Positions 13,821 to 61,129 of a stretch of DNA of 64,000 bases are shown here, piece by piece (position 1 is the first letter of the stretch; each line of letters starts with the position of its first letter). The notes beneath the pieces are model-generated. The model was not told the origin of the DNA, made no database searches, and worked only from the letters and a program-made list of their open reading frames with translations. Source of the DNA: Nitrososphaeria archaeon. GTDB lineage: Archaea > Thermoproteota > Nitrososphaeria > JACIWG01. The stretch spans positions 1 to 64,000 of the forward strand of contig CAVVXT010000014.1 in assembly GCA_963752255.1 (NCBI GenBank), read 5' to 3'. A program made the translations under genes and the position numbers.

Positions 13821-14113
13821 TGAACATACGCCGGTGGACAGATTACGGAAGAAATCCTGTGGAAACTCCTTCCTCCGAGTAAAAGCGTGGCGCTGAGAAG
13901 CGCAGCGGTAGACCGTTGGCAACGGAACAGAAACGACACCAACCTAGACGCATGACGATGATAGATATTTGAGAAGGTCTAGCAATTGGGTTAAACGGCC
14001 GACCCACGCGGAGCAAGACCAAATAGGGCAATGTGCATTTACTCAAAGCCCAGGTAGGTCGCATAGTCTAATACTGTCAAAACAGAAGAAGGGTTACAGC
14101 CGGCTTATGTTCA
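13821..14113 (+). ncRNA. rnpB: RNase P RNA
   Basis: Terminal helix TGAACATA.GCCGG / CCGGC.TATGTTCA; conserved GGAAACTCC, ACAGAAAC, GGAGCAAG and AACAGAA..GGGTTA elements. Confidence 0.92.
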
Positions 14114-52201: not shown

Positions 52202-52269
52202 AGCAGAACTCTTCCCGCTTTCTATTATATATTTTTATCTAATTTTGCATACGATTTAAAAAGATTTAG

Positions 52270-52341
52270 AGCTCCGAGCGGGTTTTGAACCCGCGGCCTA
52301 TAGCTTACAAGGCTATCGCTCTACCACTGAGCTACCGGAGC
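52270..52341 (-). tRNA. tRNA-Thr (TGT)
   Basis: Cloverleaf; ATAGC-CTTGTAA-GCTAT. Confidence 0.95.
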
Positions 52342-52374
52342 TCGTCAAAACTTAATAAAGTAGGTTTAAAACTT

Positions 52375-52686
52375 TTACTTTATATCCATGAAGAGTATCT
52401 TCATAAAAGACTCGAGTTCATCATCACGATAATAGAAAGTCGAATATTCATCTCTTTTTTTTGCGATTAAAAATGCATACAGATGATAGCAGAACTGCCT
52501 CTTCTTCTTAAGTATGTTAAAATAGAAATCTTTGCAAGAACAAAAAGGGGGTTTCTCATTTACTAAATTGTCTCCCTCCTCTCCAATTACGGTCCAAATT
52601 TCTGATTGACTAGGTAAGAACACATGTTTTCTGATAGCTTTACGTTCTAAGGTTAATTGTACTTTGTTCCTAGTCGTTCTTTTCAT
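52375..52686 (-). CDS. SWIM zinc-finger protein
   Basis: FCSCKDF..FCYHL. Confidence 0.85.
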   Translation of the reverse strand: MKRTTRNKVQLTLERKAIRKHVFLPSQSEIWTVIGEEGDNLVNEKPPFCSCKDFYFNILKKKRQFCYHLYAFLIAKKRDEYSTFYYRDDELESFMKILFMDIK

Positions 52687-52730
52687 ATCTAGACGTTAAC
52701 TTATTTAAAGAGTCTTATTTATCAATATCT

Positions 52731-53474
52731 GTGGGTGGCCGAAGAATTGACATACTTTACGATAAAGCTGCTTTAGTTTTTAATTCTCCAAATAAAAACT
52801 TCTTTTGCATTACTGACTTACATTTGGGTTATACGCCTTCATCATCAATTCCATTACATAATAAGAGATTGGCTGAAGAACTTGCTGAAAAAATAGTTGA
52901 ATTATCAAAAAAAGCCAAAGCAGAAAACTTAATTCTCTTAGGCGATGTTAAACACACTATTGTTCGTGTTTCATATTCTGATCGATCATTACTTGATTCA
53001 TTCTTCGCAACCTTAAGGCTGTTCTTTAAAGAAATATACCTTATATTAGGAAATCACGATGGATCAATATCTAAAGCTCTTCCAACTTATGTTAAGCCTA
53101 TAAAAAAAGGCATATTGTTAAATAACGTATATTTTATGCACGGCCATGCTCTTCCAGGGCAAGATGTTCTAAAATCAAACTTGATCGTGATGGGGCATCT
53201 CCATCCATTGTTCTACAAGGAGCATTCACCGTTAAATGGACAACGAGTATGGATTCTCATGAAATTATCATTGAAAAAAGTGTTTCCTTGGAAAGATAAG
53301 ATATATCGGCTGATAGTTATGCCTCCATTTAACTATGAAATTTCTTTCCCTATGGGTCACATATACACTCCAAATCTCAATAGCAGAATATCTCCTTTGT
53401 TGAACAGATGCAAAGAAGATGTGCTTGAAACTAAGATAATATCCCTTGATGGAACTATTCTGTCACAAGTTTGA
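52731..53474 (+). CDS. Calcineurin-like metallophosphoesterase
   Basis: DLHLG, LGDVKH, GNHD, HGH and GHLHP. Confidence 0.9.
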   Translation: MGGRRIDILYDKAALVFNSPNKNFFCITDLHLGYTPSSSIPLHNKRLAEELAEKIVELSKKAKAENLILLGDVKHTIVRVSYSDRSLLDSFFATLRLFFKEIYLILGNHDGSISKALPTYVKPIKKGILLNNVYFMHGHALPGQDVLKSNLIVMGHLHPLFYKEHSPLNGQRVWILMKLSLKKVFPWKDKIYRLIVMPPFNYEISFPMGHIYTPNLNSRISPLLNRCKEDVLETKIISLDGTILSQV

Positions 53475-53570
53475 TCATTTAAGAATAAATTAAACTTATC
53501 CAAGTTTCGCCCCAAATGCCTTTCCGCTTGTAATAAGTTGTGGTCATGCAAACTATCTAACAGTTTAGTA

Positions 53571-53646
53571 TGGGGTCGGTGGGATTTGAACCCACGATTT
53601 CACGGGCCCGAGCCGTGTAGCCTGAACCATGCTAGCTGACGACCCC
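53571..53646 (-). tRNA. tRNA-Pro (CGG)
   Basis: Cloverleaf; CACGG-CTCGGGC-CCGTG. Confidence 0.93.
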
Positions 53647-53715
53647 CCCTTAACATCGATATCAAAAGGATAACCATATATACCCTTATCAAGTCTAAAA
53701 AAAATCGCCGAGGGC

Positions 53716-53818
53716 GCCGAGATACCATTTCGCTCGAGAGCTCAGCTTGGTCAGAGCGTTGGACTCATAATCCAGAGGCCGCGGGTTCGAAACATTCGCG
53801 AGAAGCCCGCTCTCGGCA
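53716..53818 (+). tRNA. Elongator tRNA-Met (CAT) with two non-canonical introns: 8/9 (53724-53738) and 59/60 (53792-53804)
   Basis: The spliced sequence forms a full cloverleaf GCCGAGA..TCTCGGC-A; both inserts have BHB geometry. Confidence 0.88.
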
Positions 53819-53849
53819 TTAACATTATCTAATTTTATAGAAAATAAAA

Positions 53850-53923
53850 AGCCCTAGGCGGGGATTGAACCCGCGGCCTCCGCCTTACCAAGGCGGCGCT
53901 CAACCAGGCTGAGCTACCAGGGC
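53850..53923 (-). tRNA. tRNA-Thr (GGT)
   Basis: Cloverleaf; CCGCC-TTGGTAA-GGCGG. Confidence 0.95.
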
Positions 53924-58500: not shown

Positions 58501-59127
58501 GAAATCTAAAATGTTTTACCAATAGCTAAAAGACATTAATCTTATTCTGCAAGTAAAAGCTGTTATTTGTGCACAACTTCTCTAATTATTTTGATAGGGA
58601 ATGATAATTTTTAAGATAGTGGTTGTAAATTTATGGTAAAATCAAGTTTACAAGTGTTTTCTGTTCTCCAAATTATAACAGAGCACCTAAATATTCAGAA
58701 TTAAATTCGATACCAAGTAGAGGTAAGTGTGTAGTCAAAAAATAAGTGCAAATGAAAAATATATCGCACAAATATCTAAGAAAAACTCCAGAAAAATAGC
58801 ATAGGATGATTTATATATTATTCTGAATAAAATTGATTTCTAATATTCGTCTTCTGTGAATCAATAGCGGATCGAAGACAGATAGAATTTCTGTCTGCTC
58901 TTTACCGATTGATGCGTTATTACATCAAAAAACTTATGACTTCATAGTCACATACTTTTCCCGATAATTTTTGACCTATAATAAAAAGTACCCAAAAGCT
59001 ATCCAAACCTTCCATGCAACACCTTTTACTATTTAATGTTTGTTTGAGCAGTGTGATGTCAAGGCACTCTTCTTCTGATCACTATTAGTTAGCAAGTAAT
59101 AATCGATATTCACATCCACGAGAGCAG

Positions 59128-59212
59128 TGCGGGGGGTGGGATTCGAACCCACGAACGCCTTCGCGAACAGATCTTGAGTCTGTCCCCTTTGACCTAACTC
59201 GGGGACCCCCGC
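59128..59212 (-). tRNA. tRNA-Leu (CAA)
   Basis: ACAGA-CTCAAGA-TCTGT; long variable arm. Confidence 0.95.
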
Positions 59213-60983: not shown

Positions 60984-61129
60984 TTGAACGTTGGTTAACT
61001 GACGAGTAGCATGATTAACGCCTTAGATGCAATTCGTGATCTAGACGATCATGGATGAAGGACATAGAGGGCTATATTCCCTCAATGATTGTCGTGCATA
61101 GTTGCGACAGCCAGAATAGTATTCCTGAT

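What the first reader, a model, noticed from the sequence alone, without database searches (positions are those of the whole stretch)
53707..53818. tRNA-Met with introns at 8/9 and 59/60, and a 5' leader that mimics the acceptor strand
Seen: intron 1 (15 nt) lies between positions 8 and 9. Its central helix CGAG/CTCG uses acceptor nucleotides 3-6, with bulges AT^A and AG^A, so the acceptor stem must open for splicing. The 9 nt just upstream (GCCGAGGGC, 53707-15) nearly duplicate the 5' acceptor strand and can form 9 bp with GCTCTCGGC (53809-17). Intron 2 (13 nt) sits in the T loop (TTCG/CGAG, AA^A, AA^G). Known: non-canonical and multiple tRNA introns occur in TACK archaea with relaxed-specificity endonucleases; 8/9 is not a position I recognise as common. 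Inference: the leader acts as an internal chaperone that holds the 3' strand and frees the real 5' strand, forcing splicing to happen before RNase P cleavage.
Basis: partly seen in the sequence, partly recalled or inferred. Interest (0 to 1): 0.75.

Follow-up and report, generated by a model that had tools for sequence, protein, structure and literature searches.

The report
tRNA-Met with acceptor-mimicking leader
An archaeal methionine tRNA gene is broken by two tiny introns, and the short stretch transcribed just ahead of it copies the tRNA's own first strand, probably to hold the molecule open so that the first intron can be cut out.

Summary
Window 53716-53818 (+) encodes a tRNA(CAU), most likely the elongator tRNA-Met. 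It carries a 15-nt intron at 8/9 and a 13-nt intron at 59/60. ARAGORN and the Rfam threshold both miss the gene. Removing the two inserts by coordinates gives a perfect 75-nt cloverleaf. Each intron has a 4-bp helix flanked by two 3-nt bulges. For intron 1 that helix uses acceptor nucleotides 3-6.

The 9 nt upstream (53707-53715) copy the acceptor 5' strand plus the start of the T stem, and can pair with nucleotides 63/64-72. I found the gene in 11 sequences of one uncultured Nitrososphaeria family. All 11 have both introns and the leader copy. The leader varies at 2 of 9 columns, against 9 of 10 just upstream and 15 of 15 downstream. Both leader changes are A/G opposite U. Nine tRNA-Met genes from four other families have neither the 8/9 intron nor a conserved mimic.

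In folding models the leader lowers the cost of the intron-1 splice motif by about 7-10 kcal/mol. Composition-matched shuffled leaders do part of the same. There is no compensatory covariation and no RNA data. The chaperone idea is plausible and better supported than before, but unproven.

The parts
53676..53682 (.). TATA-like box ATATATA inside a near-palindrome (GATAACC-ATATAT-ACCCTTATC). It is probably a shared divergent promoter for tRNA-Pro (-) and this tRNA-Met (+).
   Evidence: Seen and conserved in 11 of 11 homologues (columns 3-19). The spacing of 24 nt from the box to the first G of the leader copy is the same where the leader is 9 nt and where it is 11 nt. Promoter function and start site are inferred, not shown.
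53707..53715 (+). 5' leader GCCGAGGGC. It copies acceptor nt 1-7 (G for A at position 7) plus GC, which matches T-stem nt 49-50. It can pair with nt 64-72. G1 can add a tenth pair with C63.
   Evidence: Nine contiguous pairs starting at nt 72. Conserved in 11 of 11 homologues, 2 of 9 columns variable, both A/G opposite U. P(leader helix) is 0.85 here and 0.97-0.998 in the other 7 genomes folded.
53716..53723 (+). Exon 1, tRNA nt 1-8 (GCCGAGAT).
   Evidence: Invariant in 11 of 11 (0 of 8 columns vary).
53724..53738 (+). Intron 1, 15 nt, at position 8/9. Its CTCG (53733-36) pairs with acceptor nt 3-6 (53718-21). Bulges are A7 U8^A and A G^A9.
   Evidence: In 11 of 11 homologues the ends (AC...G CTCG A R) are kept (1 of 9 columns varies) while the loop varies in sequence and length (6 of 6 columns). 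Metagenome contigs show G53738A and a 2-nt deletion at 53728, which are changes in the bulge and the loop only.
53739..53791 (+). Exon 2, tRNA nt 9-59: D arm, anticodon arm with CAT, variable loop, T stem 5' strand and TTCGAA of the T loop.
   Evidence: The Rfam tRNA model matches 53739-53799 at model positions 9-63. ARAGORN cloverleaf after splicing.
53792..53804 (+). Intron 2, 13 nt, at position 59/60. Its CGAG (53799-802) pairs with T-loop TTCG (53786-89). Bulges are AA^A and AA^G. The T stem is the outer helix.
   Evidence: Kept in 11 of 11, with one U:G to U:A change in the helix. A similar 12-nt insert sits at the same place in the tRNA-Met of another family (L009).
53805..53818 (+). Exon 3, tRNA nt 60-73. 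It includes the acceptor 3' strand. 53809-53817 is complementary to the leader.
   Evidence: Invariant in 11 of 11 (0 of 14 columns vary). No CCA is encoded.

Best explanation
The locus encodes the genome's elongator tRNA-Met(CAU), interrupted by two mini-introns of the archaeal bulge-helix-bulge (BHB) kind. They are cut by the splicing endonuclease, which in this genome has two paralogous subunits.

Intron 2 (59/60) sits on an intact T stem and needs no help.

Intron 1 (8/9) can only present its splice sites if acceptor nt 3-6, and probably nt 1-2 as well, leave the 7-bp acceptor stem and pair with the intron's CUCG.

The 9-11-nt leader probably begins at or within 1-2 nt of the transcription start. 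It is a copy of the strand that normally pairs with nt 63-72, that is acceptor nt 1-7 plus the first T-stem nucleotides. By forming 9-10 pairs with the 3' strand it outcompetes the true 5' strand, which forms 7 pairs. This frees the true strand for the intron-1 motif.

After excision and ligation the CUCG partner is gone, the body folds into the L shape, the true strand displaces the leader, and RNase P removes the leader. RNase P RNA lies in the window at 13826-14108.

Shown: the gene structure, the motifs, the conservation pattern, and the co-occurrence of leader copy and 8/9 intron. Inferred: the start site, the leader helix in vivo, that splicing needs it, and the order of processing.
For: Gene and introns:
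- establish the structure.
- This is one of three CAU tRNAs. The others are an initiator (A1:U72, three G:C pairs in the anticodon stem) and an Ile-like GGGCCCA tRNA, so this is the only elongator Met candidate.
- Two endonuclease paralogues of 186 and 182 aa each carry PF02778 and PF01974.

Leader:
- 9-10 contiguous pairs in register from nt 72 in 11 of 11 family members.
- 264 of 264 alignment cells are paired for the leader helix plus both motifs.
- Leader columns vary at 2 of 9, against 9 of 10 in the 10 nt before it, 15 of 15 in the trailer and 6 of 6 in the intron-1 loop.
- Both leader changes are A/G opposite U.
- DNA contigs from 3 of 4 metagenome runs list no change in the leader. They do vary in the spacer, the intron loop and a bulge.

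Co-occurrence:
- The pattern for the 8/9 insert was found in 8 of 401 genomes of the class, all in the one family.
- It is in 8 of the family's 10 genomes. The two without it are 76-77% complete.
- Nine tRNA-Met genes of four other families have no 8/9 insert. Their leader runs are 3, 7, 3, 3, 3, 3, 5, 4 and 3.

Energetics:
- The ensemble cost of forming the intron-1 helix with open bulges is 0.3-5.1 kcal/mol with the leader and 7.4-12.8 without, in 11 of 11 sequences.
- Without the leader, P(helix) is 0.000 and P(acceptor) is 0.87 in 8 of 8.

Start site: the TATA-to-leader spacing is fixed at 24 nt while the leader length differs.
Against: - No compensatory (two-sided) change supports any helix. 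The shuffle control is uninformative because almost all columns are invariant.
- The 11 sequences come from one family and are not independent.
- Composition-matched shuffled leaders also lower the cost, to a mean of 1.7-7.6 kcal/mol. The real leader is matched or beaten by 1-11 of 60 shuffles per sequence.
- P(intron-1 helix) with the leader is 0.008, 0.009, 0.037 and 0.001 in the four non-g2 genomes folded. Other pairings are predicted to win there.
- The outer helix of the intron-1 motif is only 2 bp and the inner one 1 bp. Whether the enzyme accepts this is untested.
- The model keeps the leader helix favoured after both introns are removed (P 0.60-0.998). The return to the native fold therefore rests on tertiary structure and RNase P capture, which the model does not include.
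- The TATA scan of other tRNA leaders is noisy.
- No RNA run holds the locus.
Confidence: 0.5

Rival explanations
1. The leader helix is a timing or quality gate and is not needed for cutting. By occupying the 3' strand it keeps the unspliced precursor from being taken by RNase P, 3'-end enzymes or the synthetase. The endonuclease would reach the 8/9 motif by breathing of the stem.
For: The same conservation data apply. The leader helix is predicted to dominate before and after splicing, which suits a block. Shuffled leaders also lower the cost of the motif, so the exact copy may serve another end.
Against: Without the leader the motif costs 7.4-12.8 kcal/mol, too much for simple breathing. 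A gate does not explain why the mimic occurs only with the 8/9 intron and not with other tRNA-Met introns.
Confidence: 0.17
2. The leader is a neutral relic. A short tandem duplication of the gene's 5' end, perhaps made by the event that created intron 1, has simply not decayed yet.
For: It is a direct tandem repeat. All carriers belong to one family. No compensatory covariation is seen.
Against: Only 2 of 9 leader columns vary, against 9 of 10 directly upstream, 15 of 15 downstream and 6 of 6 in the intron loop, in the same 11 sequences. The two changes both keep pairing. The 2-nt indel between genera falls at the junction, not inside the copy.
Confidence: 0.08
3. The leader is conserved for a reason unrelated to the 3' strand, such as an initially transcribed promoter element or a protein-binding site.
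For: It lies at a fixed 24 nt from a conserved TATA-like box.
Against: This does not explain identity with the acceptor strand or A/G-only changes opposite U. No similar sequence precedes the other 46 tRNA genes.
Confidence: 0.07
4. The first copy is the real exon 1. The intron's CUCG would pair with the leader's CGAG, and a 24-25-nt intron containing the second copy would be removed. The product would be a tRNA with G at position 8 whose 5' end is the transcript start.
For: The same 4-bp helix and two 3-nt bulges can be drawn with the first copy (sequence). The leader starts at promoter distance.
Against: The product would have G8. The 8th letter is T in 42 of 46 ARAGORN tRNA calls of this genome, and the other 4 calls appear to start one base early. 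The second copy plus AC is invariant in 11 of 11 while the first copy varies, the reverse of what an intron and an exon should show. The conserved C-G inner pair fits only the 8/9 reading. With the native acceptor formed, this pairing would be a pseudoknot.
Confidence: 0.04

Closest known systems
Non-canonical BHB introns in tRNA genes of Thaumarchaeota and Crenarchaeota
   Same: The introns are short, several per gene, and lie outside 37/38. Each has a 4-bp helix between two 3-nt bulges, and the genome has a two-paralogue endonuclease. Position 59/60 is a listed position (review PMC4090602, passages seen). tRNAscan-SE 2.0 has a Thaumarchaeota-specific intron model and reports 107 such introns (PMC8450103, passages seen).
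   Different: Position 8/9 is not among the positions named in the passages I read. The helix of this intron consumes the acceptor stem. None of these texts mentions a leader that copies the acceptor strand.
Intron at 3/4 in Thermoproteales tRNAs (Sugahara 2008, cited in PMC4090602; the primary paper was not seen)
   Same: The intron lies inside or next to the acceptor stem, so the splice motif must involve 5'-terminal or leader nucleotides.
   Different: It is in a different phylum and at a different position. Whether those genes have a strand-mimicking leader is unknown to me and was not tested here.
Split and permuted tRNA genes (Nanoarchaeum equitans, Caldivirga, Thermofilum pendens)
   Same: Sequences outside the mature tRNA (leaders and trailers) base-pair to build the structure that the splicing endonuclease needs (PMC4090602 and PMC4033280, passages).
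   Different: There the extra sequences pair with each other, form the BHB itself and are cut off by the endonuclease. Here the gene is contiguous. The leader pairs with an exon strand, is not part of the motif, and would be removed by RNase P.
Mutually exclusive helices in attenuators and riboswitches (general knowledge, recalled)
   Same: It works the same way: two copies of one strand compete for a single partner, and which pairing forms decides the processing outcome.
   Different: This is not a regulatory element of transcription or translation. No ligand is known. The switch would be driven by removal of the intron.

Membership tests
Archaeal BHB-type tRNA intron | A 4-bp central helix flanked by two 3-nt bulges on opposite strands, with each cut after the second bulge nucleotide. 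| tested here: met
   Intron 1: CGAG/CUCG with AU^A and AG^A. Intron 2: UUCG/CGAG with AA^A and AA^G. All helix cells are paired in 11 of 11 sequences.
Archaeal BHB-type tRNA intron | At least one flanking helix (h or h'), as in relaxed hBH / HBh' motifs. | tested here: inconclusive
   Intron 2 has the 5-bp T stem as its outer helix. Intron 1 has only G1-C11 and C2-G10 outside and one C-G pair inside. Whether that is enough is not known.
Archaeal BHB-type tRNA intron | Removing the intron restores a canonical cloverleaf. | tested here: met
   ARAGORN calls a 75-nt tRNA(CAT) after removal by coordinates. It calls nothing on the unspliced gene.
Archaeal BHB-type tRNA intron | The genome has a broad-specificity splicing endonuclease. 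| tested here: met
   Two paralogues of 186 and 182 aa, each with PF02778 and PF01974 above cut-off. The heterotetramer architecture and its specificity are inferred from paralogue number, not tested.
Archaeal BHB-type tRNA intron | Excision and ligation are seen in RNA. | not testable with these tools
   No RNA run holds the locus.
Elongator tRNA-Met | CAU anticodon, not an initiator (no A1:U72, no three G:C pairs in the anticodon stem), and not Ile2-like. | tested here: met
   It has G1:C72 and the anticodon stem UUGGA/UCCAG. The genome's other two CAU tRNAs are an initiator and a GGGCCCA tRNA close to tRNA-Ile(GAU) GGGTCCA. Isotype-specific models were not available.
Split or permuted tRNA gene | tRNA pieces are on separate transcripts or in permuted order, joined through leader-trailer BHB helices. 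| tested here: not met
   The exons are collinear and contiguous within 103 nt.

The most novel reading that the evidence does not exclude
The pre-tRNA is a built-in two-state switch. A leader that copies the acceptor/T-stem strand takes the 3' strand by strand displacement, which exposes the true 5' strand to the splicing endonuclease. It hands the 3' strand back only after intron 1 is gone, so splicing must precede RNase P. This would be a previously undescribed role for a tRNA 5' leader. It could also be the general way in which archaeal introns manage to sit inside or next to the acceptor stem.
Probability: 0.45. Interest if true: 0.75.

Novelty: new variant of a known kind. Interest (0 to 1): 0.6.

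Why it matters
Non-canonical tRNA introns are well known, but how an intron whose splice motif must break the strongest helix of the tRNA can be tolerated has not been explained. A conserved leader that copies the displaced strand gives a concrete, testable answer. It assigns a sequence-specific function to a tRNA leader, which is usually regarded as disposable. It also predicts an obligatory order of processing (splicing, then RNase P) in an archaeon. If the same trick accompanies acceptor-proximal introns in other lineages, it would bear on how tRNA introns spread to new positions, and on gene finders, which currently ignore leaders. Practically, this is the only elongator tRNA-Met gene of the genome and standard tools miss it.

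Tried and rejected
**Expression data.** No RNA holder is listed for the locus. The start site, junctions and order of processing could not be examined. The four runs laid were DNA contigs. One of them (X13) laid nothing.

**Covariation.** The 11 sequences are too alike. Zero pairs have changes on both sides, and the shuffle control equals the observed value in 500 of 500 shuffles.

**Wider search for 8/9 inserts.** The class-wide pattern search and the genome-contig search (7 records, all titled Nitrososphaeria or uncultured archaeon MAGs) found only this family. The patterns fix the D-arm sequence and parts of the intron, so 8/9 introns in other tRNAs or with other ends would be missed.

The metagenome scan used a pattern that was too loose. 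It gave 120 pattern hits in 119 stretches, of which only 3 are this tRNA.

**Family members without a match.** G005 and G009 gave only 3-mismatch hits to the anticodon arm that are not this gene. They are 76-77% complete, so this says nothing.

**Leader complementarity elsewhere.** One tRNA-Met of family f6 (L023) has a 7-nt off-register leader match. It is not kept in 5 other f6 genomes, so I treat it as chance.

**TATA calibration.** The crude scan of 46 upstream regions is noisy (box centres from -25.5 to -46.5, mode about -30.5). I use it only as a weak hint.

**Leader as outer helix, or leader-trailer stem.** Pairing beyond the 9-10 bp is not conserved between genera (by eye).

**Removal of the leader by the endonuclease.** The second cut would fall inside the 3' acceptor strand (by reasoning). 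Rejected.

**Literature.** Five searches and passages from five papers show no mention of an 8/9 intron or of a leader that copies the acceptor strand. Sugahara 2008 and Marck & Grosjean 2003 were not in the library, and supplements such as the tRNAscan-SE 2.0 intron tables are closed. They may list 8/9.

Full report
**What is there.** The window is an archaeal contig with a 16S-23S operon, an RNase P RNA and several tRNA genes. Public records that hold the same tRNA pattern are titled Nitrososphaeria or uncultured archaeon MAGs.

At 53716-53818 (+) neither ARAGORN nor the Rfam tRNA model at its threshold reports a gene. In the whole-genome search the tRNA model matches only 53739-53799, model positions 9-63, at 27.6 bits against a cut-off of 29.

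Reading the sequence gives this layout:
- exon 1 (nt 1-8) at 53716-23
- a 15-nt insert at 53724-38
- exon 2 at 53739-91
- a 13-nt insert at 53792-804
- exon 3 at 53805-18

Joining the exons by coordinates in a script gives a 75-nt sequence that ARAGORN folds as a complete tRNA(CAT).

The genome has three CAU tRNAs. One is an initiator (A1:U72, three G:C pairs in the anticodon stem). One has a GGGCCCA acceptor close to that of tRNA-Ile(GAU). The third is this one, so it is the elongator tRNA-Met by exclusion.

**The two introns.** Both have the archaeal splice motif, a 4-bp helix between two 3-nt bulges with the cut after the second bulge nucleotide.

For intron 2 the helix is T-loop UUCG with intron CGAG. 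The bulges are AA^A and AA^G, and the intact T stem is the outer helix.

For intron 1 the helix is acceptor nt 3-6 (CGAG) with intron CUCG, and the bulges are AU^A and AG^A. Outside it only G1-C11 and C2-G10 can pair, and inside only one C-G pair. The intron's CUCG is necessarily a copy of acceptor nt 67-70. The motif and the acceptor stem therefore exclude each other.

The genome encodes two splicing-endonuclease paralogues of 186 and 182 aa, each with both Pfam domains. This fits the two-subunit enzymes that are reported to cut non-canonical introns (PMC5829648 and PMC3239211, abstracts seen in the listing).

**The leader.** The 9 nt before the gene, GCCGAGGGC, repeat acceptor nt 1-7 with G for A at position 7, followed by GC. 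They can form 9 pairs with nt 64-72. G1 can add a tenth pair with C63.

The extra GC(G) equals T-stem nt 49-51. The leader therefore copies the whole strand that faces nt 63-72 in the stacked acceptor/T helix, and it can form more pairs than the true 5' strand.

By chance, a run of 9 or more pairs occurs in 0.126% of random 25-mers from the genome. Among the genome's 47 tRNA leaders this one is the longest, 9 against at most 7.

**Relatives.** Full-length homologues exist in 8 of the 10 genomes of the family. The two without a match are 76-77% complete and gave nothing usable. Three more homologues came from metagenome contigs.

All 11 sequences have both introns and the leader copy. It is 9 nt in six sequences (genera g1, g3 and g4 plus metagenome contigs L131 and L163). 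It is 11 nt, with GU added at the junction, in five (genus g2 plus contig L120). Leader runs against the 3' strand are 9-10 in 11 of 11, always starting at nt 72.

Column variability is as follows:

| Segment | Variable columns |
|---|---|
| 10 nt before the leader | 9 of 10 |
| Leader | 2 of 9 |
| Exon 1 | 0 of 8 |
| Intron-1 ends | 1 of 9 |
| Intron-1 loop | 6 of 6 |
| Trailer | 15 of 15 |

The two variable leader columns are A/G opposite U66 and U68, so pairing is kept in every sequence. In total 264 of 264 cells are paired for the leader helix plus both motifs. No pair changes on both sides, so there is no true covariation.

DNA contigs from three of four metagenome runs list changes in the spacer, the intron-1 loop, the last intron-1 base and the D loop. 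They list none in the leader.

**Controls from other families.** A pattern for the 8/9 insert was found in 8 of 401 genomes of the class, all in this family.

Nine elongator tRNA-Met genes from four other families have introns elsewhere or none. The positions are the anticodon stem, and in one family (L009) 59/60 as well. Their leader runs are 3, 7, 3, 3, 3, 3, 5, 4 and 3. The single 7 is off register and not kept in five sister genomes.

The mimic and the 8/9 intron therefore go together. The 59/60 intron is older and has no such companion.

**Folding models.** With the leader, the leader helix has probability 0.85-0.998 and the native acceptor at most 0.11 in 8 of 8 genomes. Without the leader, the acceptor has 0.87 and the intron-1 helix 0.000 in 8 of 8.

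The ensemble cost of forcing the intron-1 helix with open bulges is 0.3-5.1 kcal/mol with the leader and 7.4-12.8 without, in 11 of 11.

Three results temper this:
- With the leader, the intron-1 helix is the likely fold only in the g2 genomes (0.51-0.94). It is at most 0.04 in the other four genomes folded.
- Shuffled leaders of the same G+C-rich composition also lower the cost, to a mean of 1.7-7.6. The real leader is matched or beaten by 1-11 of 60 shuffles per sequence.
- The model keeps the leader helix favoured after one or both introns are removed. The return to the native fold must therefore rely on tertiary structure and on capture by RNase P, which the model does not include.

**Start of transcription.** A TATA-like box (53676-82) lies in a near-palindrome that is conserved in all 11 sequences. 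It probably serves tRNA-Pro on the other strand as well.

The distance from the box to the first leader G is 24 nt in both the 9-nt and the 11-nt leader forms. By the usual archaeal spacing (recalled), this places the start at or 1-2 nt before the leader copy. A crude scan of the other tRNA upstream regions is noisy, with a mode near -30.5 against -37.5 here. This is only a hint that the leader is a few nucleotides longer than usual.

1. The leader takes nt 63-72.
2. The true 5' strand pairs with the intron.
3. The endonuclease cuts at 8/9.
4. After ligation the body folds, the true strand displaces the leader, and RNase P removes the leader.

The rivals are:
- a gate that only blocks end-processing
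- a neutral duplication, which fits the conservation contrast poorly
- an unrelated promoter-proximal element, which does not explain identity with the acceptor strand
- a reading in which the first copy is the real exon 1

The last reading would give G at position 8. By contrast, 42 of 46 tRNA calls in this genome have T as the 8th letter, and the other four seem to start one base early. It also conflicts with the second copy being invariant while the first varies.

**Comparison with what is known.** Non-canonical and multiple tRNA introns in Thaumarchaeota and Crenarchaeota are established. Position 59/60 is a listed position, and 3/4 in Thermoproteales is called an extreme case (PMC4090602, passages; PMC8450103, passages).

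I found no mention of 8/9 or of an acceptor-copying leader in five searches and the passages read. The primary catalogues and all supplements were out of reach.

In split and permuted tRNAs, leaders and trailers build the motif itself. Here the leader would act one step removed, by sequestering the competing strand.

**Verdict.** The gene and its introns are a new member of a known kind. The conserved leader mimic is a new variant worth an experiment. Interest 0.6.

Noticed in passing
window 53665-53695: The TATA-like box between tRNA-Pro (-, 53571-53646) and tRNA-Met (+) sits in a near-palindrome, GATAACC-ATATAT-ACCCTTATC. It has purine-rich BRE-like arms on both sides and is conserved in all 11 homologues. 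It looks like one bidirectional archaeal promoter serving two divergent tRNA genes.
   Followed up: partly
L004 about 1586-1606 (genome G003): The same tRNA-Met gene in one genus carries a third, 21-nt insert at 45/46. Its CUGG can pair with anticodon-stem nt 40-43 (CCAG), with bulges AG^A and AA^G, and it has its own 4-bp inner hairpin. That makes three introns in one 75-nt tRNA.
   Followed up: partly
G000:C19:608443-608540 (+), outside the window: tRNA-His(GTG), with an encoded G-1, has an insert of about 18 nt in the T loop. ARAGORN misses it and the Rfam model scores it at only 20.3 bits. The splice motif was not worked out.
   Followed up: no
G000:C7:15739-15840 (-), outside the window: tRNA-Leu(TAA) appears to have an insert of about 24 nt in the D arm. 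The Rfam model reports only a weak 21-bit match.
   Followed up: no
G000:C10:174030-174144 (-), outside the window: A tRNA-like stretch has a good acceptor stem and T arm, but the roughly 70 nt between them do not fold as D and anticodon arms (Rfam E 0.19). It could be a heavily interrupted tRNA, a remnant or an attachment site.
   Followed up: no
L174 (genome G017), flanks of its tRNA-Met: In this family-f6 genome the leader and the trailer of tRNA-Met share a direct repeat of about 9 nt (CGCGGCCAC). Other f6 genomes have G+C-rich leaders without this repeat.
   Followed up: no
window 60984-61121: The 16S-23S spacer is only about 138 nt and holds no tRNA. The tRNA genes cluster upstream of the operon instead (52269-53923 and 59127-59212).
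   Followed up: no
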